Shown here piece after piece: positions 8,083 through 28,338 of a stretch of 64,000 nucleotides of DNA; position 1 is the first letter of the stretch; each line of letters starts with the position of its first letter. The stretch covers positions 49,233 through 113,232 of the forward strand of contig CANQJH010000001.1 of the NCBI GenBank assembly GCA_947624195.1. Reading direction: 5' to 3'. Source of the stretch: an uncultured Clostridia bacterium. Lineage in GTDB: Bacteria > Bacillota > Clostridia > TANB77 > CAG-508. The notes below the pieces were generated by a model. The model had not been told where the DNA came from. It did not search any database and was given only the letters and a program-made list of their open reading frames with translations. The position numbers and the translations under genes were made by a program.

Positions 8083-9399
8083 ATGAAAAACAAAGGAATA
8101 ACACTAGTTGCGCTAGTAGTAACAATAGTAATTATGTTAATTTTGGCAGGGGTAACATTGAGATTAGCTTTAGGGGAAAATGGATTGTTTAATATATCAA
8201 AACAATCAGTTGAAAAGTATGAGGAATCAGTCCAAAACGAAGAAGAAGAATTAGATGAATTACTAGAAGAATTAAAGCATATAATGCCAGAAGAGGCAGG
8301 AAAAGAGGTAGAAGTACCAAAAGCAGAGAAAGATAAGTGGGATTTAACAAAAGTAACACCAACAGCAGACGGAAAAGGAAATACAATACCAGTACCAAAA
8401 AATTTTTATTATGTAGGAGGAGATAAAGACTCAGGATTTGTAATATCAAGTGTAAGTGGAGATGATCTAAACAATAGTAAAAAAGGTAATGAATTTGTAT
8501 GGGTACCAGTAAAAGTTATAAATGATATGGTAATGTGTAAGGAACATACAACAGCTACAATTACTTTTGATGGAGTAAATTTTTCTTGTGATGGAAATGG
8601 ACACCCACATACACCGAACAAAGAATACTTGGTAGGACAACTTTATACTCCGACTACGGATAATGGATTTACTGCAGGAATACCATATACAGAATATAAT
8701 GAAAACATAATAAGGGAACCAGGATTGACAACAGTGGATACAGATGAAAATTTATCTAATTTTTTACAGACTACATCAAATGAATTTTTACAGGAGTTAC
8801 AAGAAGAATTTTATAAAATGGCAAAAAGTGTAGCAAAATATGGAGGATTTTATATAGGCAGATATGAAACATCAGGTTTAAATGACGGCGAGGAACCAAA
8901 AGTACAATCGGGACTAGTACCAACGGGAAACATTAACTGGTATACAATCTACAAAAATAGTAAAAAAATAGCCCAAGAAGGTTCAAATGTAACAAGTAGT
9001 ATGATATGGGGAAGTCAATGGGACTATGTACTAAATTGGATGCAAGACATAGAAAATCCAACATTGACAGAAGAAAAGAAATATTACATTATGGACAGTA
9101 GAGGAATGGGTTGGTATTATGGAGAAACAGGAAACAATGAGCATAAAACAGGAATAGATTTGATAAAGGACGGAAAAGTAACCAATAAAGAAAAAAATAT
9201 TTATGATTTTGCAGGAAATTTTGAGGAATTAAATATGGCTTGCTCGGGCGGTACAGTACGTGCTTTACGTGGAGGATCTTATAAGCTGGAGGGAAATGTT
9301 CGTCCTGCTTGTAACCTTCGACTGGTAAGACCTGACGCTATATATGAGTGGGTTAGTAGTCGAGTTACACTTTGTATAAACTTGAATCCGGGGGAGTAA
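8083..9399 (+). CDS. pilin-like-anchored surface protein with a C-terminal FGE-sulfatase/C-type-lectin-like domain; candidate DGR target 1
   Basis: N-terminus KGITLVALVVTIVIMLILAGV resembles a type IV prepilin signal but lacks F+1 and E+5; a coiled-coil stalk follows. The C-terminal motifs IYDFAGNFEE, RGGSY and RLVR match the FGE-sulfatase fold. The 3' end is GC-rich and A-depleted. Confidence 0.8.
   Translation: MKNKGITLVALVVTIVIMLILAGVTLRLALGENGLFNISKQSVEKYEESVQNEEEELDELLEELKHIMPEEAGKEVEVPKAEKDKWDLTKVTPTADGKGNTIPVPKNFYYVGGDKDSGFVISSVSGDDLNNSKKGNEFVWVPVKVINDMVMCKEHTTATITFDGVNFSCDGNGHPHTPNKEYLVGQLYTPTTDNGFTAGIPYTEYNENIIREPGLTTVDTDENLSNFLQTTSNEFLQELQEEFYKMAKSVAKYGGFYIGRYETSGLNDGEEPKVQSGLVPTGNINWYTIYKNSKKIAQEGSNVTSSMIWGSQWDYVLNWMQDIENPTLTEEKKYYIMDSRGMGWYYGETGNNEHKTGIDLIKDGKVTNKEKNIYDFAGNFEELNMACSGGTVRALRGGSYKLEGNVRPACNLRLVRPDAIYEWVSSRVTLCINLNPGE
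9235..9396 (+). other. putative DGR variable-region-like patch in target 1
   Basis: Local GC far above the window background, depleted in A, with rare codons (TCG, GGC, CGT, CGA); coincides with the last beta-strands of the lectin-like fold. Confidence 0.45.
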
Positions 9400-9426
9400 C
9401 TTGATAGGTTCAAACTTATTTTTAAA

Positions 9427-9452
9427 CCAGAGCAGTTAGAGAGCTGCTCTGG
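9427..9452 (+). other. GC-stem hairpin just downstream of target 1, with no U-tract
   Basis: ccagagcagttagagagctgctctgg followed by gttgttgatg; positioned like a DGR VR-flanking hairpin rather than an intrinsic terminator. Confidence 0.45.
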
Positions 9453-9566
9453 TTGTTGATGATACAGTCAAATGAAAAAATATAAACGGAATAAAAGAAT
9501 TTCAATTATAGGAGAAATATTAGATAAAATAAATAATATTATAAAAAAATAAATTAAAAATTGTTA

Positions 9567-9783
9567 AATTGTCGTTAAGTAATATACTTGACGATATATT
9601 CATATATGTATTTTATACTAAAAAATAAACAAAATCAACACTTTATATAATTTTCTTTTTGAAATAAAATTGAAAATATAAAAAATCTGTAAAGTGTTGA
9701 TCCTCAAGACTAATCTCCACAAATAAATTATCATTAAGTATATTACTTAATGATAAAAATAAAAAATTGGAGAGGTGCGGAAG
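9567..9783 (+). repeat. duplicated 5' regulatory region (copy 2), including the operator-like palindrome at 9731..9753
   Basis: Homologous to 7870..8082; contains tcattaagta-tat-tacttaatga. Confidence 0.7.
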
Positions 9784-11076
9784 ATGATGAAAAACAAAGG
9801 AATAACACTAGTTGCTTTAGTAGTAACAATAATAATTATGTTAATTTTAGCAGGGGTGACATTAAATATTGCTTTAGGTGATAACGGATTAATAAAGCAA
9901 ACAAAAAAAGCAGCGGATTTAGCAAAAGAGTCTATGAAAAATGAGGAAGAAGATGTAGGAAAACTAGTTAATCAATTAGATGAAGTAATAAAAGAAAGTT
10001 TACCAAGTACAGTAAAAGAAGCAATAGAAACAGAAGAAATATTTACAGTTAATAAGAAAATAACGGATGAAAGTGGAAAAACAATGGTAGTACCAAAAGG
10101 CTTTAAAGTAATAGAAGAAACTAATATAGATAGTGGCGTAGTCATAGCAGACGGAGAAGGTAATGAGTTTGTATGGGTACCATGTGAAGATGGTGAATAT
10201 AAAAAACATGTATATGATGTAAAACAAATAGATGATGCTACTACTACTTTAGCTGATGGAGTAAACAAAGAAAAAGGTTGGACTACATTACAGTATAGAA
10301 AATATAGTGATTGGAAAGATGAAGTAGATGAAGTGGCAAATATAAAAAGTGTGGAAGATAATAAAGGATTTTATATAGCGAGATATGAAGCGGGTGTACC
10401 CAAGAATGCAGATTTTTATGTAGAGGCTTCTGCTGAAGGAGTTAAAAATAAAAATTATCCACAAAGTAAAAATGATATAAGTGATAATATAAAGCCAGTA
10501 AGTAAAAAAGGAGTGCAAACATGGAATTTAATAAGTCAAATAAATGCTAAAACCGTATCCGAAAGAATGTATAGCGGAGAATCTTACGGAGTAAGAAGTC
10601 AACTAGTAGATGGAACTGCATGGGACACTGCCGTAACATGGATGTCAAAAGAGTACGTAGGAATAGAAAAAAATAGTACAAATTATGGAAATTATAATAA
10701 CACACCTACAAAAGAAATAACAGGCTTATATGCAGCACATACTTATAGTGATGGTTGGCAATTAGCAACAAGTTATGGTTATGGAAAAAAAAGTATAGGT
10801 GGAAGAAGTAGTTTGAGAACTGAAATAGCGACAGGCTTAGTAAATGAGTTTAAACTAAAAAACATATATGATATGGCTGGAAATATGTATGAATGGACTA
10901 CAGAATATGGATATCATGATGGTGGAACCAGCAGTACAAAATATGTTGTTCAGCGAGGAGGATGTCCTACTGACGATGGTGGTGTCCACCCAGTTTCTGT
11001 TCGTAGTGGCTATTGGGCAGAAACGGTAGAAAATAATCCTGTATTTGGTTTTCGAGTTGTACTTTATGTAAAATAA
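9784..11076 (+). CDS. pilin-like-anchored protein with a C-terminal FGE-sulfatase-like domain; candidate DGR target 2, paralog of target 1
   Basis: Same N-terminal KNKGITLVALVVTIIIMLILAGV anchor and stalk. C-terminus carries IYDMAGNMYEWT, QRGGC and GFRVV. The ORF track starts at a GTG at 9775; the ATG at 9784 has a better RBS. Confidence 0.8.
   Translation: MMKNKGITLVALVVTIIIMLILAGVTLNIALGDNGLIKQTKKAADLAKESMKNEEEDVGKLVNQLDEVIKESLPSTVKEAIETEEIFTVNKKITDESGKTMVVPKGFKVIEETNIDSGVVIADGEGNEFVWVPCEDGEYKKHVYDVKQIDDATTTLADGVNKEKGWTTLQYRKYSDWKDEVDEVANIKSVEDNKGFYIARYEAGVPKNADFYVEASAEGVKNKNYPQSKNDISDNIKPVSKKGVQTWNLISQINAKTVSERMYSGESYGVRSQLVDGTAWDTAVTWMSKEYVGIEKNSTNYGNYNNTPTKEITGLYAAHTYSDGWQLATSYGYGKKSIGGRSSLRTEIATGLVNEFKLKNIYDMAGNMYEWTTEYGYHDGGTSSTKYVVQRGGCPTDDGGVHPVSVRSGYWAETVENNPVFGFRVVLYVK
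10920..11073 (+). other. possible variable-region-like 3' segment of target 2 (weaker composition signal)
   Basis: Moderately GC-enriched relative to the gene body; homologous in position to the patch in target 1 but with a codon indel relative to it. Confidence 0.3.
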
Positions 11077-20388: not shown

Positions 20389-20598
20389 AAAAATTATTAT
20401 TAATTATATAGTTTAATAATAAATTTTTTCACTTAAAGTATATGGTATTAAAATATTTTTGTCAATACTATGTTGATAAAAATTTTTTTATTTTTTTCAT
20501 CAAAATAATTCAAAAAGCCTGATATAACTGTGAAACAAGTATTTTTAAATTATTATTAAACTATATATTTAATAATAAATAAAAAATAGGAGGAAACC
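20389..20598 (+). repeat. 5' regulatory region of target gene 3, duplicated (about 95% identity) upstream of target gene 4
   Basis: Near-identical to 24787..24994 down to the RBS (ataggaggaaaccatg). Confidence 0.8.
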
Positions 20599-21807
20599 AT
20601 GGAAAAACAAAAGAAACAAGGAATTTTGAACATTAAAAACAGTAAAGGTATAACGTTAGTAGCATTAGTAATAACCATAATAATAATGCTAATATTAGCA
20701 GGGGTGGCATTAAGACTAGCATTAGGAGAAAATGGTTTATTTAAAATGTCAGAGAAAGCAGTAGAGAAGTATAAAGAGGAAGCAGCAAAGGAAGAAAATA
20801 CACTAGGGAATATGGAAAAACAACTAAAGTACATGATAGAGGGCTATGTGCCAGACAGAAGTATGCTAAAAGTAGGAGATGAAGTAAATTATACGCCCCA
20901 AACGGCAAAAACGACATATACTTTAGAAGGTAACAAAAGTGGATACGGAGACTATACAAGTAGTAAACCTAAAACAATGACAAAAGCAACAGACCAAGAA
21001 ATAAGTCAAGAGAATTATACATGGAAGATAATGGACATAAATAGTAAAACAGGAGAAGTAAAAATAATGGGCGTACCAACAAGTAGTATGCCTACAGTAT
21101 ATTTCAAAGGAGCATTAGGATATAACAATGGAGTATATCTTTTGGATGATATATGTAAAACATTATATAGTAATAGTGACTTGGGAGTAACAGCAAGAAG
21201 TATAGATATAGAAGATATTGAAAGTAAAATGAATGACAAAGGAAGAGATGCAAAAAATGATTATATATCAGAAAATCAAACAACCAAAGAATTTAACGGA
21301 AGTAATGCATATTACCCTAACATATATAAATATCAACAAGATTCAAATATAGATGGAACAGAAAAGACAGAAGGAATAAGTGAAAGTGATGATGGAACAA
21401 AAACAGAAGCAGGAATACCAATTGAGCATGCAACAAATGTAGAAGGATATACACAAGCAGAAACAAGTATCACAGTAAAAGGAACATACTATTATGCAAC
21501 GCAAAATGCAGGATATTTTGATGATGAAGACTTTTACAATTTAATGTTTAAAACAGGTACATATTATTGGCTTGCTTCGCGTTATTCTGGTTGCTTCTCG
21601 AGTAGCTCTTGTGCTGACTTTGGGCTTCGCATTGTGGCCAGCTCTAGCATCAACGGTTACAAAATGTTCAATTCGGATGGCGATTACGACGACGACAATA
21701 TTCGCGTTTGCCCGGTAGTTTCTCTAGGGGCTAATATCCAAATCACAAGAGATGGAAACGCAGGAGCATGGGACTTATCGAAGGACCCAAATTTTGGTGG
21801 ATTTTAA
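20599..21807 (+). CDS. pilin-like-anchored protein with a C-terminal DUF1566/Fib_succ-major-like (C-type-lectin superfamily) domain; candidate DGR target 3
   Basis: N-terminus KGITLVALVITIIIMLILAGV plus an ALGENGLFKMSEKAVEKYKEE stalk shared with the other three targets. The C-terminus has YYW...NIRVCPVVSL resembling the YWSS...VRCVR motif of DUF1566. Confidence 0.75.
   Translation: MEKQKKQGILNIKNSKGITLVALVITIIIMLILAGVALRLALGENGLFKMSEKAVEKYKEEAAKEENTLGNMEKQLKYMIEGYVPDRSMLKVGDEVNYTPQTAKTTYTLEGNKSGYGDYTSSKPKTMTKATDQEISQENYTWKIMDINSKTGEVKIMGVPTSSMPTVYFKGALGYNNGVYLLDDICKTLYSNSDLGVTARSIDIEDIESKMNDKGRDAKNDYISENQTTKEFNGSNAYYPNIYKYQQDSNIDGTEKTEGISESDDGTKTEAGIPIEHATNVEGYTQAETSITVKGTYYYATQNAGYFDDEDFYNLMFKTGTYYWLASRYSGCFSSSSCADFGLRIVASSSINGYKMFNSDGDYDDDNIRVCPVVSLGANIQITRDGNAGAWDLSKDPNFGGF
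21561..21735 (+). other. putative DGR variable-region-like patch in target 3 (strongest composition signal)
   Basis: The first ~90 nt contain roughly 10% A by hand count, against roughly 35-40% A in flanking coding sequence. Dense TGC/TCG/CGC/GGC codons; the composition falls back to normal about 80 nt before the stop. Confidence 0.5.
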
Positions 21808-21810
21808 ATG

Positions 21811-21840
21811 CGCCTTGGAGGCCTTAGGTCTCCAGGCGAC
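21811..21840 (+). other. GC-stem hairpin 3 nt after the target 3 stop, with no U-tract
   Basis: gcgccttggag-gccttaggt-ctccaggcgac followed by taaagagg. Confidence 0.45.
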
Positions 21841-23164: not shown

Positions 23165-24613
23165 ATGGATAGTTATAAAAATTCTCAATTGGAAGAATTA
23201 AAAAATGATAATTATAAGAATGTGAAATTGGAAGAATTTAATAAGACTATATCTAACAAAAGAGTTGCCATTATTGGACTTGGTGTAAGCAACATCCCGC
23301 TTATTAATTACTTTAAAGATTTGGGAAGTTCGGTTTCTGTTTTTGATGACAGGGATGAAAGCAAAATAGAGCCAGATATTTTAGAAGAGCTAAAACAAAA
23401 TAATATTAAATTTTATTTAGGCGAAAATTGCTTAAAAGATTTGATAGGATTTAACTACATTTTTCGTTCGCCAAGTTGTATGCCATGGAGAGAAGAAATC
23501 CAAAAAGAAGTGAAAAATGGTGCTATTTTAACATCAGAAATTGAGCAAGTGTTAGAACTTAGTCCAAGCCATATTATAGGTGTGACTGGAAGTGATGGCA
23601 AAACAACAACAACTACTTTAGTGTATAAATTATTACAAGCTGAGGGATACAAATGTTTTTTGGGTGGCAATATAGGCACTCCGCTATTTACTCAAATTAA
23701 GGATATGGAGCCTGATGACTATGTTGTATTAGAGCTTAGCAGTTTTCAGCTAATGGATATGAAAGTAAGTCCGGAAATATCAATAGTTACCAACATTAGC
23801 CCTAATCATTTAAATGTACATAAAGATTATCAAGAGTATATTGATAGCAAAAAGAATATTTATTTACATCAAAGTCAAAATGGTATATTGGTTATAAACA
23901 AGGACAATGACATAACAAAAGAGTTTTACAAAGATGCTCCGGGAAAGGTTAGATTTTTTAGTCATAAGCAATTACTAAATGATGGTGTGATATTTGATGA
24001 AAATGATAGGACTATTAAAATATGCGAGGATGGAGTTAGAAAACATATTTTAAGGCAAAAAGATATGTTGATTAAAGGTGAACATAACTGCGAAAATGCT
24101 TGTAGTGCTATCTCTGCAGTGCTTGGTTTAGTTAAGGAAGACAATATAATTTCTACAATAAAAAATTTTGCTGGTGTTGAGCATAGGCTTGAGTTTGTTA
24201 GAGAAATTGATGGAGTAAAATGGTACAATGATTCTATTGGAACGAGCCCAACAAGAACTATTGCAGGACTTAATTCTTTTGATGAGAAAATTGTTTTAAT
24301 TGCTGGTGGATATGATAAGCACTTGGATTATACTCCAATTGGCAAGCCAATACTTGATAATGTTTCTAAGCTAATTTTAATGGGTGATACGGCAGAGAAA
24401 ATCTATAATAGCGTTGCTCAAGAAATGCAAGTGCAAAATAAGTCTATTCCTATTTACAGGTGTGCGACTTTACAAGAGGTTGTAAACAAAGCTAGAGAAG
24501 TTGCTACAAGTGGGGAAGTAGTACTATTTTCTCCTGCTAGTGCAAGTTTTGATTTATTTAAAAATTTTGAAGAAAGAGGAGAGAAGTTTAAGGACTTAGT
24601 GCGCGCAATTTAG
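23165..24613 (+). CDS. murD: UDP-N-acetylmuramoylalanine--D-glutamate ligase
   Basis: Mur ligase with GVTGSDGKTTTTTL P-loop and conserved middle and C-terminal domains. Confidence 0.85.
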   Translation: MDSYKNSQLEELKNDNYKNVKLEEFNKTISNKRVAIIGLGVSNIPLINYFKDLGSSVSVFDDRDESKIEPDILEELKQNNIKFYLGENCLKDLIGFNYIFRSPSCMPWREEIQKEVKNGAILTSEIEQVLELSPSHIIGVTGSDGKTTTTTLVYKLLQAEGYKCFLGGNIGTPLFTQIKDMEPDDYVVLELSSFQLMDMKVSPEISIVTNISPNHLNVHKDYQEYIDSKKNIYLHQSQNGILVINKDNDITKEFYKDAPGKVRFFSHKQLLNDGVIFDENDRTIKICEDGVRKHILRQKDMLIKGEHNCENACSAISAVLGLVKEDNIISTIKNFAGVEHRLEFVREIDGVKWYNDSIGTSPTRTIAGLNSFDEKIVLIAGGYDKHLDYTPIGKPILDNVSKLILMGDTAEKIYNSVAQEMQVQNKSIPIYRCATLQEVVNKAREVATSGEVVLFSPASASFDLFKNFEERGEKFKDLVRAI

Positions 24614-24786
24614 TACGTTACCATTATGTGCAATAAAAAACAACTATATTTATGTTATACGCAATGTACAAAACATAAAATAGTTGTTTTTATTAAATAA
24701 ATAGATTGAAGTTATTATTAATTATATATAAATTTAAACTATTATTAGTTAAATAGACTAGAATTATCAATCATTTTAAACAAATT

Positions 24787-24994
24787 AAAATTATTATTAA
24801 TTATATAGATTAATAATAAATTTTTTCACTTAAAGTATATGGTATTAAAATATTTTTGTCAATACTATGTTGATAAAAATTTTTTTATTTTTTTCATCAA
24901 AATAATTCAAAAAGCCTGATATAACTGTGAAACAAGTATTTTTAAATTATTATTAAACTATATATTTAATAATAAATAAAAATAGGAGGAAACC
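24787..24994 (+). repeat. duplicated 5' regulatory region (copy 2) upstream of target gene 4
   Basis: See 20389..20598. Confidence 0.8.
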
Positions 24995-25981
24995 ATGAAA
25001 AAACAAAAGAAAGAAAACAAGTTCAACTTAAAAGAACAAGGTATAACGCTAGTTGCGTTAGTAGTAACAATAATAATACTTTTAATCTTAGCAGGAGTAA
25101 CAATCAACATAGCTTTAAGGGAAAATGGATTATTTAAAATGTCAGAGAAAGTAGTAGAGAAGTATAAGGAAGAAGCAGGAAAGGAAGAGGAAACATTACA
25201 GGATTTAGAACAACACATAAAAAATAATACACCCGTTGAACCAGCAGAAGAACCTAAAGAGCCTATAGGAAAAACACCGTATGTAGGATATTATGCAAGT
25301 AGAGATGGAATAACAGTAGATGGAATAATATATGCAGACCAAGCAGTAGGAAATACAAACGGAACAAAATGGAGTGATGGTGATGGAACCTACACAATAC
25401 CAATAAAAGAAGAAGGCTTAAAGGAATACTATATAAGTCAAGAATCATACACAACAGAAGCCTTTGGACCAAAACCTGTGTTAACACCAATAAATGATGA
25501 AGGAGAAGACAGATTTTATATCATGTCACTTGAAGATTTTGGAGGAAAAGGACAAAGTTATTATTGGTATTATAGCGCATTTAAAAATATGAGTGATTAT
25601 AGTACAGCAACATCAACAAAATTTGGAACTGGAAAAACCAATACAGAGAACATGGTAGCAAAGTGGACGGCGGGAGAAAGTGAAGATGGTTATGGAAAGC
25701 AAGATGGGGGAAGCACATATAAAGATATATGGGGATACTTTTCAAGAAAAGAAATACCAGAAGGATGGTTTTTACCATCAAGAGGAGAATTAGCAGCATT
25801 TATGCAAGAATTAGGGATAAACAGCAGTAATTATTCTAATCAATTTCAATTATCTAGTTATTACTGGTCGTCGTCGCAGTTCAATTTTAACTACGCATGG
25901 CTCGCGTACATGCTTATTGGTTGTATGAGCAGCTACACTGTGAATTACGGCCGCTGCGTGCGCCTGAGTGCGACTTTCTGA
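24995..25981 (+). CDS. pilin-like-anchored protein with a C-terminal DUF1566-like domain; candidate DGR target 4, immediately upstream of the RT
   Basis: N-terminus QGITLVALVVTIIILLILAGV and a conserved stalk. The C-terminus SSYYWSSSQFNFNYAWLAYMLIGCMSSYTVNYGRCVRLSATF fits the YWSS...AW...R.VRCVR signature. Confidence 0.75.
   Translation: MKKQKKENKFNLKEQGITLVALVVTIIILLILAGVTINIALRENGLFKMSEKVVEKYKEEAGKEEETLQDLEQHIKNNTPVEPAEEPKEPIGKTPYVGYYASRDGITVDGIIYADQAVGNTNGTKWSDGDGTYTIPIKEEGLKEYYISQESYTTEAFGPKPVLTPINDEGEDRFYIMSLEDFGGKGQSYYWYYSAFKNMSDYSTATSTKFGTGKTNTENMVAKWTAGESEDGYGKQDGGSTYKDIWGYFSRKEIPEGWFLPSRGELAAFMQELGINSSNYSNQFQLSSYYWSSSQFNFNYAWLAYMLIGCMSSYTVNYGRCVRLSATF
25855..25978 (+). other. putative DGR variable-region-like patch at the extreme 3' end of target 4
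   Basis: Roughly 18% A by hand count over ~120 nt. Contains TCG-TCG-TCG, GCG, CGC, GGC and CTG codons that are rare elsewhere in this AT-rich genome. Confidence 0.5.
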
Positions 25982-26004
25982 TTTTGTAAAAAATCAGAAA
26001 AATA

Positions 26005-26075
26005 TAGGCCTACATTATGTAAATAATGTAGGCAATTCAAACCGAGATATTCTTCGTAAGAAGAAACTCGGTTTG
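26005..26075 (+). other. two consecutive stem-loops between target 4 and the RT, neither followed by a U-tract
   Basis: taggcctacatt...aatgtaggc (26005..26033) and caaaccgag...ctcggtttg (26038..26075), the latter with a nested ttcttcgtaagaagaa palindrome. Confidence 0.5.
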
Positions 26076-26178
26076 AATTAAAAGGATTAGATTGATAAAA
26101 GGAAATTTATTATAGAAAATGCGAGTTTCATTATATTAAGTTTAAATACTCTTCTTATGAAGAGTATTTTTATAAGAG

Positions 26179-27321
26179 GTGTATATGGATAATAAGCTAA
26201 CTTTTGAAGATTTATATGAAGCATATAATTTATGTTTAAAAAATAAAAAAAATAAAATAGGAACATATAATTTTGTAAACTATAATTTATGCAAAAATTT
26301 AATGGAGCTACTAGAAGAATTAAATAATAAACAATACATTCAAAGACAATCTAATTGTTATGTAGTTAAGGATCCAGCATTGAGAGAAATATATGCAGCT
26401 CAATTTTTTGACAGAGTAGTACAGCATTTTTATATGAAAGAAGTAGAACATATTTTAGAAGAACAATTAGTTGACGGTTGTTGTTCATGTAGAAAAAATA
26501 AAGGTAATGATTATGCTCTTCAATTATTAAAGAAATATCTTAAAGTAGTATCGAATAATGGGAAAAAAGACTGTTACTTTCTTAAAATTGATTTATCTGG
26601 ATATTTTATGTCAATAGATAGAAAGCAAATAAGTCAAAAGTTCTTAAATCTTATAAGCAATAAATATAAAGGACCATATAAAGAATTACTCATTTATTTA
26701 ACTCCAATTATATTTGAAAATAATCCGGCAGTGAACTGTAAGTATAAATGTAATGAAAAAGTAAGAAACCTAGTACCTGAAAGAAGAAAAATGAATCCGA
26801 AATCCGATTATGGAATGGCTATAGGTAATTTGACTTCTCAGGCAGGTAGCAATTTTAATCTCAGTGAATTTGATAATTACGTTGTATATAAACTAAATCT
26901 AGTTAATTATATTAGATATGTTGACGATATGGTGATAATTTCAAATAATAAACAAGAGTTACAAAATGCAATGCCGTATATAATAAATAAACTTAAAGAA
27001 ACTAATCAATCTATAAGTGAAAAGAAAACTAAAATAGATACTGCGTATCATGGAGTACCATTTTTGGGAAAAGTTTCTTTTCCATACGGTTATCAAAAAG
27101 CTAAAAAATCGACAATAGTGAGAGTATATAAAAGGGGTAGAGAAATTAGATATAAGGACACAGACAATTTATTAGCAAAAACAAATTCGCAAATTGGATT
27201 GCTAAAAGGATATAACTGCAGAAAACTAATATTAAATTATTCTAAAATTATACAAAACAAAACGGGAGACGAAATTTATTTGAATGAAGAAATGTTAAAA
27301 TTTTGTAAAAAGAATAAATAA
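26179..27321 (+). CDS. diversity-generating retroelement reverse transcriptase
   Basis: RT motifs ALREIYAAQFFDRVVQH (motifs 1/2), LKIDLSGYFMSIDRK (motif 3), AIGNLTSQ (the DGR-specific GxxxSQ motif 4) and YVDDMVII (motif 5). The likely start is the ATG at 26185 with an aagagg RBS; the track begins at a GTG at 26179. Confidence 0.85.
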   Translation: MYMDNKLTFEDLYEAYNLCLKNKKNKIGTYNFVNYNLCKNLMELLEELNNKQYIQRQSNCYVVKDPALREIYAAQFFDRVVQHFYMKEVEHILEEQLVDGCCSCRKNKGNDYALQLLKKYLKVVSNNGKKDCYFLKIDLSGYFMSIDRKQISQKFLNLISNKYKGPYKELLIYLTPIIFENNPAVNCKYKCNEKVRNLVPERRKMNPKSDYGMAIGNLTSQAGSNFNLSEFDNYVVYKLNLVNYIRYVDDMVIISNNKQELQNAMPYIINKLKETNQSISEKKTKIDTAYHGVPFLGKVSFPYGYQKAKKSTIVRVYKRGREIRYKDTDNLLAKTNSQIGLLKGYNCRKLILNYSKIIQNKTGDEIYLNEEMLKFCKKNK

Positions 27322-27411
27322 AGCTTGTTATATAGGAAAAATAAATAAATAGAAAAAATTGTAACAATACAATACCTCACTACATAAATTAATGTAGGAG
27401 GTATTTTTATA

Positions 27412-28338
27412 ATGTATGATGATTATTTTAAAAATATAATTGGTGGAAGTATAAAGTCTCCAGAATACTATGTTTCTACATATGATAACCATACTTATCA
27501 GCCTAGACAAGTAAGTGCTCTTCCAGGATACAATTATTCTGCCGATACAAATTTTAATGACAATGACATTGAAGATTTATATCCAGATATTTATAAAATT
27601 GTATCCCCAATGGTAGATAAACTTTTAGACGGAAAAACTTTTGATAATGTAAATGAAGACATGTTGGTAAAATGGACTGTGGAAATCTATGATGCTCTTG
27701 AAGTTGATGATGATAATACCAAATTAGTAAATGATAATGTTGCTAAAACTGGCAGTAGTGTTATTTCTAATGGTACTAGTAGATCAAATGTAAATCAAGG
27801 AGTTGCAGGTAATAGTAGCAATAATACTATAAGACCTGGCTCTAACTATGAAAGTGAAACTACTAGCGCAAGGACTGCACAGAGAACGGTGCTATCTAAT
27901 ACAGTTGCAAATACACCTTCTAATACTATGACTAAAGCGGGAATAACTACACCTTCTTCTACAATAAGTAGTACAGCGGTCAATACATCATCTAATTCGA
28001 TAACTAATACAGGAGTAAGCGCATCACCTAATACAGTAAATAATGCAACAGTCAATGCAATATCTAATTCTACAACAAATAAAGAACCAAAAGTGGTTGA
28101 TGTAGTAAGTAGATATAGAAATTATAAAAATCCGCTTCTAAGGGATTTAATAAGAATATTGATTTTAAATAAATTATATGGAAATCGTAGACCGCCAAGA
28201 GGTATGCCAAGACCTTATCAAGACTTTGAACCAACATTTATTCCTATGCCAGATTATAGTAGTGTAAACACAGAAGTTTATAAACCTTATACTAATTATT
28301 CTAAAGCTTACTTAGACACACCTTATCCAGAAGAATAA
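27412..28338 (+). CDS. hypothetical protein with an S/T/N-rich low-complexity core and a Pro/Tyr-rich C-terminus
   Basis: The RBS is embedded in a hairpin (cctcactacat...atgtaggagg). The middle third is repetitive SNT/ANT; possibly a spore-coat-like structural protein. Confidence 0.45.
   Translation: MYDDYFKNIIGGSIKSPEYYVSTYDNHTYQPRQVSALPGYNYSADTNFNDNDIEDLYPDIYKIVSPMVDKLLDGKTFDNVNEDMLVKWTVEIYDALEVDDDNTKLVNDNVAKTGSSVISNGTSRSNVNQGVAGNSSNNTIRPGSNYESETTSARTAQRTVLSNTVANTPSNTMTKAGITTPSSTISSTAVNTSSNSITNTGVSASPNTVNNATVNAISNSTTNKEPKVVDVVSRYRNYKNPLLRDLIRILILNKLYGNRRPPRGMPRPYQDFEPTFIPMPDYSSVNTEVYKPYTNYSKAYLDTPYPEE

What the first reader, a model, noticed from the sequence alone, without database searches (positions are those of the whole stretch)
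24995..25981. Fourth family member abutting the RT, in the canonical target-then-RT order
The gene ends in a DUF1566-like motif (YYWSSS...NYGRCVRLS) encoded by an A-poor, rare-codon stretch. It is followed by two stem-loops, and the RT start codon lies 200 bp downstream. This is the arrangement of a classical DGR cassette, except that no avd and no template repeat lie between them.
Basis: partly seen in the sequence, partly recalled or inferred. Interest (0 to 1): 0.85.

Follow-up and report, generated by a model that had tools for sequence, protein, structure and literature searches.

The report
Retroelement hypervariable gene missing its template
This gene is a genuine target of a diversity-generating retroelement and sits next to its reverse transcriptase, but a deletion of about 0.7 kb has removed the helper gene and the template repeat, so this is most likely a disabled copy of a known system rather than a new template-less one.

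Summary
ORF 24995-25981 ends in YYWSSSQ...VRLSATF. That stretch is A-poor (0.19 against 0.40-0.51 in the rest of the gene) and uses rare codons (codon index 0.27 against 0.73). Stem-loops follow it (three, not two), and the RT ATG (26185) lies 203 nt after the stop codon. The RT carries the DGR signature IGNLTSQ plus YVDD.

RT relatives (72-77% identity, uncultured gut Clostridia) sit in canonical cassettes: target/VR, three hairpins, 153-aa avd-position gene, conserved RNA leader, TR, RT. The g4 tail is codon-for-codon collinear with their TRs.

A profile built from nine intact cassettes matches window 25857-26102 (E 5e-40) and 26121-26209 (E 1e-7). About 723 profile positions, covering avd, the leader and TR, are replaced by 18 nt. 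Only the last 10 nt of TR survive (TGCGAGTTTC), including the family-wide G that distinguishes TR from VR.

No TR or avd was found in the 64 kb window or in 9.9 kb upstream of it. A truncated paralog elsewhere has an identical VR scaffold with different variable codons, so one TR once wrote both VRs.

Intact relatives vary their VR between samples. g4 is a single sequence in 4-5 assemblies.

Verdict: a decayed member of a known DGR class.

The parts
24787..24982 (+). AT-rich 5' region of g4, including the RBS. It is 99% identical to 20390-20585, upstream of paralog g3.
   Evidence: Repeat family D4. The assembly of sample ERZ27249386 breaks inside it, at window 24810.
24995..25981 (+). g4, the DGR variable-protein (target) gene, 328 aa. 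It has an N-terminal pilin-like signal/anchor, a helical stalk, and a globular domain (residues ~90-328) that ends in a C-type-lectin-like (DUF1566/Lcl_C-like) variable region.
   Evidence: AF2 model with mean pLDDT 85.7. Foldseek best PDB hits are 4eps (Bacteroides fimbrial protein), 8q4e (Lcl C-terminal domain) and then weak (E 0.7-8) C-type lectin-like matches. 2239 homologs at E <= 1e-5.
25031..25102 (+). Pilin-like N-terminal hydrophobic segment (KEQ-GITLVALVVTIIILLILAGV). It is shared by the four paralogs and has no Glu at +5.
   Evidence: Pfam N_methyl match at residues 13-36, 15.2 bits, below the 21.2 cut-off. Repeat family D1.
25847..25978 (+). Variable repeat (VR). The mutagenised codons run from ~25856 to 25957. 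The A-free scaffold codons are TAC TGG TCG TCG TCG CAG, GCA TGG, GCG and GGT.
   Evidence: Codon-collinear (42 codons) with the TRs of L003, L006, L010 and L018. nhmmer E 5e-40. A fraction 0.19, the same as VRs of intact relatives at 0.19-0.23.
25958..25978 (+). IMH-like GC-rich 3' end of VR (GTGCGCCTGAGTGCGACTTTC). C at 25974 is the VR-specific base; TRs have G at this position.
   Evidence: The C (VR) versus G (TR) difference is seen in every relative. The stretch 25958-25989 (IMH plus stop codon and 8 nt beyond) is 32/32 identical to paralog P0122. The 21-nt IMH itself occurs exactly in two GTDB MAGs.
25975..26000 (+). Hairpin 1, overlapping the last codon and the stop codon (TTTCTGATTTT-GTAA-AAAATCAGAAA).
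   Evidence: Conserved in 10 relatives, with compensatory changes.
26008..26033 (+). Hairpin 2 (GCCTACATTAT-GTAA-ATAATGTAGGC). The TTATGTnAATAA core is conserved and the outer stem covaries.
26034..26079 (+). Hairpin 3. It has a long covarying stem capped by an invariant CTTC-GTAA-GAAG element.
26103..26120 (+). Deletion scar. These 18 nt stand where intact relatives have ~723 profile positions covering the avd-position ORF, the conserved RNA leader and TR.
   Evidence: nhmmer with the profile of 9 intact cassettes: model positions 256-978 have no counterpart. blastn against L018 gives the same result.
26120..26129 (+). Remnant of the TR 3' end (IMH*-like): TGCGAGTTTC, against VR TGCGACTTTC at 25969-25978.
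26130..26184 (+). Conserved post-TR spacer: ATTATAyTAA, hairpin 26144-26169, a T-run, and the RBS AAGAGG (26174-26179) of the RT.
26185..27321 (+). DGR-type reverse transcriptase, 378 aa, full length. IGNLTSQ is at residues 213-219 and YVDD at 245-248.
   Evidence: Pfam RVT_1, E 5e-15. 495 homologs. The best solved structure is 8ub7_A, E 9e-18. It deviates at 4 of 159 columns that are >= 95% conserved; the family median is 2 and the maximum 5.

Best explanation
g4 plus the RT is what remains of a canonical chromosomal DGR of the DUF1566/CLec2 class. That class has the layout target/VR-IMH, hairpins, avd, RNA leader, TR, RT.

While the cassette was intact, TR RNA was reverse-transcribed with misincorporation at adenines. 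The cDNA replaced the VR at the 3' end of g4. It also replaced the VR of at least one remote paralog. This diversified about 20 codons of the ligand-binding face of a surface-anchored, pilin-like lectin-fold protein.

The A-poor, rare-codon composition follows directly from this mechanism. Scaffold codons in TR and VR must be adenine-free. TR adenines have been randomised in the VR.

In this strain a deletion of about 0.72 kb removed the avd-position gene, the conserved RNA leader upstream of TR, and all of TR except its last 10 nt.

Steps shown:
- The homology to intact cassettes, the position of the deletion and the TR scar.
- The absence of TR and avd across 74 kb.
- Past writing of two VRs from one TR.

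Steps inferred:
- The cassette can no longer make cDNA, so the g4 VR is frozen. In the Bordetella model Avd, the upstream RNA segment and TR are all required.
- The RT ORF is still intact because the loss is recent.
For: 1. The RT is DGR-type.
- It carries IGNLTSQ and YVDD.
- Its nearest homologs (P0005, P0016, P0074 and L018; 72-77% identity) all sit in target/avd/TR/RT cassettes.

2. The last 42 codons of g4 align without gaps to the relatives' TRs.
- Asn codons (AAC/AAT) in the TRs face the variable residues of g4.
- Y-W-S-S-S-Q, A, A, G, V and V-R-L are fixed.

3. The cassette profile matches both flanks and skips the middle.
- It matches window 25857-26102 (E 5e-40) and 26121-26209 (E 1.4e-7).
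- It skips model positions 256-978.
- blastn to L018 gives the same break.

4. The scar looks like a TR end.
- TGCGAGTTTC (26120-26129) carries the TR-specific G.
- The VR has TGCGACTTTC. The same C/G difference is seen in every intact relative.

5. No TR or avd was found nearby.
- No TR was found by three search methods.
- No avd was found by tblastn.
- Neither was found in 9.9 kb upstream of the window.

6. The paralog P0122 (L013) shows past writing from a shared TR.
- The 32 nt spanning IMH, the stop codon and 8 nt beyond (25958-25989) are identical.
- The TAC TGG TCG TCG TCG CAG scaffold is identical.
- 32 differences are concentrated in the variable codons.
- The gene body is 84% identical.

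7. Intact relatives are active, while g4 looks static.
- L006 and L008 come from different samples. They differ at 32 positions, all within nt 907-1004 of the target gene. They differ at only 1 of 2047 nt downstream.
- g4's 90% cluster holds one sequence, seen on 4-5 contigs.

8. The same family shows other decay states.
- L022: TR and leader deleted, RT frameshifted.
- L026: avd start fused to RT codon ~20.
- L024/L025: RT truncated.

9. Mechanistic requirement: bRT needs Avd, the 3' end of avd, TR and Sp for any cDNA synthesis (bioRxiv 10.1101/2023.10.23.563531).
Against: - The RT ORF is full length and only mildly deviant (4 of 159 conserved columns; 10 of the 113 sequences in the comparison, the window's own RT included, deviate at 4 or more). 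That would also fit continued selection for some function.
- Three other paralogs in the window have A-poor 3' ends but no TR nearby. Other DGR components may therefore exist elsewhere in the genome.
- Only 74 kb of the genome could be searched. The source genome was not found among the GTDB species representatives searched.
- The 4-5 assemblies that carry the identical g4 come from one project and may be one strain. The lack of VR variation is therefore weak evidence.
- The 153-aa 'avd' of the relatives is assigned by position, size and pI (9.6) only. It matched no Pfam, PHROG or PDB Avd entry.
Confidence: 0.78

Rival explanations
1. The element is still active in trans. A TR, with avd, lies elsewhere in the genome, either alone or inside a second complete DGR. 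It supplies template RNA or cDNA that still homes into the g4 VR, which keeps its IMH and hairpins. The local RT is either used with that remote RNA or is redundant.
For: - The RT is intact.
- The target-side recognition elements (IMH and three conserved hairpins) are intact.
- A remote paralog was written from the same TR, so non-adjacent targeting exists in this lineage.
- Three more paralogs have VR-like ends with no TR in the window.
- Remote targets are documented for other DGRs (PMC5758913).
Against: - No TR or avd was found in 74 kb.
- In all 10 relatives examined, the TR lies in cis immediately upstream of the RT.
- The TR scar shows that this cassette's own TR was here.
- cDNA synthesis in the model system is cis-primed from an RNA containing the avd 3' end, TR and Sp. 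A remote TR would therefore normally come with its own RT.
- g4 and P0122 each occur as a single sequence across assemblies.
Confidence: 0.14
2. This is a new template-less DGR mode. The RT primes on the retained spacer and TR stub and reads back through the hairpins into the VR transcript itself. The VR would then serve as its own template, without Avd.
For: - The target and the RT are co-oriented and only 203 nt apart.
- The spacer hairpin and the last 10 nt of TR are retained.
- The RT is intact.
- About 26% of catalogued DGRs lack avd (PMC5758913).
Against: - Self-templating would progressively strip adenines from the VR and from the hairpin region. The VR A fraction (0.19) equals that of VRs in intact cassettes (0.19-0.23).
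- The hairpin region aligns well with relatives.
- The conserved ~130-nt RNA leader found in all intact relatives is missing.
- Relatives with similar deletions also carry broken RTs.
- No VR variants were seen.
Confidence: 0.04
3. The missing segment is an assembly artefact. avd and TR are present in the real genome but were collapsed during assembly.
For: The VR and TR of a DGR are near-repeats and can confuse short-read assemblers. One assembly breaks at the nearby 196-nt repeat.
Against: - The same sequence was assembled independently in 5 contigs from different samples, 100% identical over 11-21 kb.
- The junction is not VR-to-TR. It lies ~125 nt beyond the VR, after three unique hairpins, and joins onto the last 10 nt of TR. 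A repeat collapse would not produce that.
Confidence: 0.03

Closest known systems
DGRs with DUF1566/DUF823/Fib_succ_major ('CLec2') variable regions, exemplified by the Legionella pneumophila DGR (LdtA target, avd, MSL accessory gene); Wu et al. 2018, PMC5758913
   Same: - The VR is C-terminal, in a DUF1566/Lcl_C-like lectin fold.
- The conserved YWSSSQ...VRL scaffold carries AAC/AAT-templated variable codons.
- A GC-rich IMH is followed by inverted repeats.
- The target is surface-exposed.
- Relatives carry an avd-position gene, and several also carry a MutS_I-like (MSL) gene after the RT.
   Different: - The window copy has no TR, no avd and no MSL gene.
- The target is anchored by a pilin-like N-terminal segment rather than a lipoprotein signal.
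- The host is an AT-rich uncultured gut Clostridia bacterium.
- Three hairpins follow the VR, instead of one.
Bordetella phage BPP-1 DGR (mtd-avd-TR-brt), the mechanistic prototype
   Same: - The gene order in relatives is target, avd, TR, RT.
- The RT carries the [LIV]GxxxSQ motif.
- The best solved-structure match is 8ub7_A, a 328-residue reverse transcriptase (E 9e-18). From memory I believe this is bRT. I could not confirm that here.
- There is an IMH/IMH* single-base distinction and a structure downstream of IMH.
   Different: - The context is chromosomal, not phage.
- The lectin subclass is different.
- In this family a ~130-nt conserved RNA leader lies upstream of TR, and only ~55 nt lie between TR and the RT.
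- The window lacks Avd, the upstream RNA and TR, all of which the BPP-1 system needs for cDNA synthesis.
Bacteroides DGRs that diversify Type V pilus tip adhesins (bioRxiv 10.1101/2024.11.15.621889); PDB 4eps fimbrial protein
   Same: - A gut-commensal DGR acts on a lectin-fold tip of a pilus-like surface protein.
- 4eps is the best Foldseek PDB hit of the g4 model (E 4.7e-3, probability 0.99).
   Different: - The N-terminal module is different: a type IV pilin-like hydrophobic segment rather than a Type V pilin fold.
- The phylum is different.
- The fold match covers only the C-terminal domain (TM 0.2-0.3).

Membership tests
Diversity-generating retroelement (complete cassette) | Reverse transcriptase of the DGR clade, with [LIV]GxxxSQ in motif 4 and YxDD | tested here: met
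   IGNLTSQ at residues 213-219 and YVDD at 245-248. The homologs at 72-77% identity sit in TR-bearing cassettes. Matches to group II intron, retron and DRT models fall far below their cut-offs.
Diversity-generating retroelement (complete cassette) | A template repeat paired with the variable repeat, differing almost only at TR adenines | tested here: not met
   No TR was found in the window by ungapped scan, by an A-tolerant scan, or by blastn with word size 7. None was found in 9.9 kb upstream. Only a 10-nt 3' stub remains, at 26120-26129.
Diversity-generating retroelement (complete cassette) | Variable repeat at the 3' end of a target gene, with IMH and a downstream inverted repeat | tested here: met
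   The VR is collinear with the relatives' TRs and VRs. The GC-rich IMH is at 25958-25978. Three conserved, covarying hairpins follow it.
Diversity-generating retroelement (complete cassette) | Accessory gene (avd or equivalent) in the cassette | tested here: not met
   tblastn with the relatives' 153-aa proteins gave E > 8 across the window. The profile positions covering that ORF are absent.
Diversity-generating retroelement (complete cassette) | Ongoing adenine-specific diversification of the VR | tested here: inconclusive
   Past diversification is shown by g4 against P0122. Present activity is not seen: one sequence on 4-5 contigs. Those contigs may all be one strain, and no reads were available.
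DUF1566/Lcl_C (CLec2) DGR variable proteins | C-terminal domain with a C-type-lectin-like fold that matches DUF1566/Lcl_C | tested here: inconclusive
   Pfam Lcl_C gives E 0.0024 and 18.6 bits, below the 34.9-bit cut-off. Foldseek on the pLDDT-85.7 model gives 8q4e (Lcl C-terminal domain) at E 1.2e-2 and probability 0.99, followed by weaker hits (E 0.7-8) that are mostly snake-venom and other C-type lectin-like domains. The VR scaffold is the same as in TR-proven relatives.
Type IV pilin / T2SS pseudopilin | N-terminal prepilin cleavage/methylation motif (G|F/I-T-L-x-E) recognised by Pfam N_methyl | tested here: inconclusive
   N_methyl scores 15.2 bits, below the 21.2-bit cut-off. The sequence is G-ITLVA, with Ala instead of Glu at +5. 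A relative is annotated by NCBI as 'type II secretion system protein'. Cleavage and assembly cannot be tested here.

The most novel reading that the evidence does not exclude
The RT is retained because it still works without a cis TR and without Avd. It could use the target transcript itself, primed from the retained TR stub and spacer, or it could use an unlinked template. Either way this would be a minimal two-gene, template-less DGR. It would also fit four to five pilin-like paralogs having VR-type ends with no TR in 74 kb.
Probability: 0.06. Interest if true: 0.8.

Novelty: new member of a known kind. Interest (0 to 1): 0.3.

Why it matters
The practical value is as a correction. An RT-plus-target pair with no TR or avd looks like a new architecture when read from sequence alone. 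Comparison with relatives shows it is a deletion derivative, and the TR stub marks the scar.

It also documents three other points:
- A large, essentially unannotated family of DGRs in uncultured gut Clostridia. There are 495 RT homologs (E <= 1e-10) and 2239 target homologs (E <= 1e-5). Their targets are pilin-like, lectin-tipped surface proteins.
- Cassettes of this family decay repeatedly by small deletions.
- Three covarying hairpins downstream of the VR, and a conserved RNA leader upstream of TR. Both could be useful for DGR detection and for mechanistic work.

If the RT proved to be active despite the deletion, the case would become important. The current evidence points the other way.

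Tried and rejected
- TR search inside the window. I tried an ungapped match scan, a scan that tolerates mismatches only at template adenines, and blastn with word size 7. All four paralog 3' ends were used as queries. Only chance-level hits came back.
- Rfam scan of 24600-27500: no family matched.
- Promoter/terminator scan: uninformative. There were fewer promoter-like sites than in shuffles, and it cannot settle co-transcription.
- Exact 21-nt IMH pattern in JGI metagenomes and IMG/VR: no matches. In GTDB genomes it found two relatives but not the source genome.
- Walking out of the window. The left side gave 9.9 kb of housekeeping genes with no TR or avd. The right-side look-up found no record.
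- Idea that 26074-26120 is an internal avd fragment. Local alignments landed on the same avd region in 3 of the 6 relatives tested (L018, L010, L024), but the scores were marginal (z about 2-5, and some shuffles scored higher). The profile search did not support it. I treat it as unproven.
- Self-templating adenine depletion. Rejected as unsupported, because the VR A content equals that of the relatives' VRs.
- Identity of the relatives' 153-aa gene as Avd. There was no Pfam, PHROG or PDB sequence match. It is called avd by position, size and basic pI only.
- Confirmation that PDB 8ub7 is bRT: not found in the paper library.
Full report
**1. Observation**

- ORF 24995-25981 (+) encodes 328 aa.
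- It ends in ...SSYYWSSSQFNFNYAWLAYMLIGCMSSYTVNYGRCVRLSATF.
- The last ~130 nt are compositionally aberrant.
  - Windows with A <= 0.25 run from 25841 to 25978.
  - The A fraction is 0.19 over the 123-nt VR core. It is 0.40-0.51 per 90 nt upstream.
  - GC is 0.50 there, in a window with 29.7% GC overall.
- A codon-adaptation index computed against 27 other window genes drops from 0.73 in the gene body to 0.27 in 25853-25978. TCG, GCG, CGC and CTG each make up 1-5% of their synonymous sets.
- Downstream there are three strong hairpins, not two: 25975-26000 (overlapping the stop codon), 26008-26033 and 26034-26079.
- A fourth hairpin lies at 26144-26169. The 236-nt region folds with z = -10.3 against shuffles.
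- The next ORF is a reverse transcriptase. By homology its start is the ATG at 26185, 203 nt after the g4 stop codon.
- The RT carries the DGR-type motif IGNLTSQ (residues 213-219) and YVDD (residues 245-248).
- No avd-like ORF and no repeat of the 3' end lies in the gap.

**2. The 'family'**

- Four genes share a ~70-aa N-terminus at 65-72% nucleotide identity over 221 nt. They are 8083-9399, 9775-11076, 20599-21807 and 24995-25981.
- The shared N-terminus is a pilin-like hydrophobic segment followed by a helix.
- Pfam N_methyl hits all four, below its threshold.
- Their C-terminal domains differ. g2 gives a weak FGE-sulfatase match and g4 a weak Lcl_C/DUF1566 match.
- All four have an A-poor stretch near the 3' end.
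- None has a template repeat anywhere in the window, by three search strategies.

**3. Relatives show what belongs in the gap**

- The RT has 495 homologs at E <= 1e-10. The nearest are 72-77% identical, and the few named ones are 'MAG: Clostridia bacterium'.
- Every full-length context I fetched shows the same order (L003, L006, L010, L014, L018, L019, L021, L023):
  - a target gene of 343-395 aa;
  - about 130 nt of hairpins;
  - a 128-153-aa basic protein in the avd position;
  - a conserved leader of ~130 nt;
  - a TR of ~133 nt;
  - about 55 nt containing a hairpin;
  - the RT.
- Several relatives also carry a MutS_I-like gene after the RT. This is the known MSL accessory class (PMC5758913).
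- Their TRs read S-N-N-Y-W-S-S-S-Q-N-N-T-N-N-A-Y-N-A-N-F-N-N-G-N-I-N-N-N-N-V-N-N-N-N-Y-V-R-L-A-T-S-F.
- The last 42 codons of g4 align to this without a gap. TR Asn codons face the variable residues of g4, and the scaffold residues are fixed.
- The three hairpins after the g4 stop codon are the same three found after every relative's VR. Nine of 22 predicted pairs keep pairing through double changes, and the long outer stem of hairpin 3 is different but complementary in each sequence.
- In every relative the VR ends ...CGACTTTC and the TR ends ...CGAGTTTC followed by ATTATA.
- The window has TGCGACTTTC at the VR end (25969-25978). It has TGCGAGTTTC-ATTATATTAA at 26120-26139, followed by the conserved pre-RT hairpin.

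**4. The deletion**

- I built a nucleotide profile from nine intact cassettes (1070 positions) and searched the whole window with it.
  - Positions 16-255 match window 25857-26102 (E 5.4e-40).
  - Positions 979-1070 match window 26121-26209 (E 1.4e-7).
  - Positions 256-978 cover the avd-position ORF, the leader and all of TR except its last ~9-10 nt. In the window they are represented by 18 nt.
- Pairwise blastn to L018 gives the same break. L018 is GTDB MAG CANQTZ010000019.1, an uncultured Clostridia bacterium. In it, 743 nt correspond to 44 nt in the window.
- tblastn with the relatives' avd-position proteins finds nothing in the window. Neither TR nor avd is found in the 9.9 kb upstream of the window.
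- The sequence is not an assembly artefact. Five contigs from different assemblies are identical. The junction is also not of the VR/TR-collapse type.

**5. Past activity**

- P0122 is an N-terminally truncated paralog. It sits on another contig of the same sequencing project, next to a resolvase gene and with no RT nearby.
- It is 84% identical to g4 in the gene body.
- It is 32/32 identical across 25958-25989 (IMH, stop codon and the next 8 nt), and identical in TAC TGG TCG TCG TCG CAG.
- It differs at 32 positions, concentrated in first and second codon positions of the variable codons. That part is 65% identical.
- Two diverged genes with the same adenine-free scaffold and scrambled variable codons is the signature of homing from one TR after the genes had diverged.

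**6. Present activity**

- In intact relatives the system is visibly running.
  - L006 and L008 carry the same RT and TR and come from different samples. They differ at 32 positions, all inside nt 907-1004 of the 1032-nt target gene. They differ at only 1 of 2047 nt downstream.
  - L003 and L004 behave in the same way.
- By contrast, the 90%-identity cluster of g4 contains a single sequence seen on 4-5 contigs. P0122 is also a single sequence, on 3 contigs. This is weak evidence, because the samples may share one strain.
- Mechanistically, the Bordetella enzyme makes no cDNA without Avd, without the 3' end of avd upstream of TR, or without TR and Sp (bioRxiv 10.1101/2023.10.23.563531). All of the equivalent parts except the short spacer are missing here.
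- The RT itself is not visibly decayed. It is full length and differs from the family at 4 of 159 columns that are >= 95% conserved (median 2, maximum 5). The deletion is therefore either recent or the RT is still used.

**7. Decay is common in this family**

Among eight loci from JGI metagenomes, four are damaged:
- L022 has lost the leader and TR and has a frameshifted RT.
- L026 fuses the start of the avd-position gene to RT codon ~20 and truncates the RT at 83 aa.
- L024 and L025 have a truncated RT.

The window cassette is one more state on this decay path.

**8. Why the stretch is A-poor with rare codons**

- In a DGR, the invariant scaffold residues must be encoded without adenine.
- The TR adenines are replaced by any base in the VR.
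- The VRs of intact relatives have A = 0.19-0.23, and their TRs have A = 0.36-0.39. g4, at 0.19, sits in the VR range.
- In a 30%-GC genome, adenine-free codons are necessarily rare ones.
- No extra adenine depletion is seen. That argues against self-templated cycles.

**9. The protein**

- The AF2 model (54-sequence alignment, mean pLDDT 85.7) shows an N-terminal helix, a low-confidence helical stalk, and a confident globular domain from about residue 90.
- Foldseek against the PDB returns the Bacteroides ovatus fimbrial protein 4eps (E 4.7e-3) and the Legionella Lcl C-terminal domain 8q4e (E 1.2e-2), both at probability 0.99. The hits below these are much weaker (E 0.7-8) and are mostly snake-venom and other C-type lectin-like domains.
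- This fits the DUF1566/CLec2 class of DGR targets (PMC5758913).
- G-type pilin domains have been noted among rare DGR target domains (PMC11661182).

**10. Comparison and verdict**

- The system works like, and descends from, a canonical DGR of the DUF1566/CLec2 class.
- As a cassette it fails two defining tests, TR and the accessory gene. The failure is due to a demonstrable deletion, not to a new design.
- I rate it a new, decayed member of a known kind, with interest 0.3.
- The residual novel reading is that the RT still acts without a cis TR. I put this at about 6%.
- A search of the full genome and reads for the inferred TR, read-level VR heterogeneity, and a reconstitution assay would settle the question.

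Noticed in passing
window 20390-20585 and 24787-24982: A 196-nt AT-rich segment upstream of g3 and g4 is 99% identical between the two. The first ~200 nt of coding sequence are ~90% identical. This suggests recent gene conversion or duplication of the promoter/5' region between two otherwise different genes. One metagenome assembly breaks inside it (contig start at window 24810).
   Followed up: partly
window 9205-9375 (g1), 10936-11058 (g2), 21532-21744 (g3): The three other pilin-like paralogs also have A-poor stretches near their 3' ends. g1 and g3 are followed by strong GC-rich hairpins (about 9425-9454 and 21811-21838). No TR for any of them exists in the window or in the 9.9 kb upstream. 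Whether they are VRs of other DGRs was not tested against relatives.
   Followed up: partly
L013:1306-2193 (ENA ERZ27249395 NODE_363): P0122 is an N-terminally truncated copy of g4. It begins inside the membrane helix, next to a resolvase gene. It has the same VR scaffold and IMH as g4. Homology stops 8 nt after the stop codon, so it lacks all three hairpins, and no RT or avd is nearby. Whether it lies in the same genome as the window is not established.
   Followed up: partly
L006:9681-9810, L003:9679-9810, L010:9675-9805, L018 (minus strand) and others: A ~130-nt leader between the avd-position gene and TR is highly conserved across relatives (GATTAGCAAGCTTT...AATGAAAGTGGTTGCTCCACCAA...GGTATTATCAAAAGTTGGGCAAT). 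It is presumably the 5' part of the DGR RNA scaffold in this family. It is entirely absent from the window.
   Followed up: no
L006:11359-11742, L003:11360-11743, L014:2595-2978: A 127-aa MutS_I-domain gene (Pfam E 5.7e-9) directly follows the RT in several relatives. This is the known 'MSL' DGR accessory class. It is absent from the window and from L018 (tblastn E > 0.1).
   Followed up: partly
L022:2672-4461; L026:1796-2181; L024:3956-4318; L025: These are independent decay states of the same DGR family. In L022 the leader and TR are deleted and the RT is frameshifted. In L026 the start of the avd-position gene is fused in frame to RT codon ~20, and the RT stops at 83 aa. In L024 and L025 the RT is truncated to ~120 aa although TR and avd are present.
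   Followed up: partly
L018:3178-4357 (minus strand): In this otherwise intact cassette (TR/VR pair, avd-position gene, 380-aa RT) the target gene is split into two ORFs of 202 and 143 aa. This is either a frameshift or a sequencing error.
   Followed up: no
window 27412-28338: The ORF immediately after the RT encodes a 308-aa Ser/Thr/Asn-rich low-complexity protein. It has no match in Pfam, NCBIfam or PADLOC. It is not found after the RT in any relative examined, so it is probably unrelated to the cassette.
   Followed up: partly
window 26074-26120: The sequence just left of the TR stub gave its best local alignment to the same internal segment of the avd-position gene (codons ~55-70, ...GIAKGLV.IQEDLNRN) in three of the six relatives tested (L018, L010, L024; the other three aligned elsewhere). 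The scores were marginal and the profile search gave no support. It may be a second, internal remnant, which would imply two deletions rather than one.
   Followed up: partly
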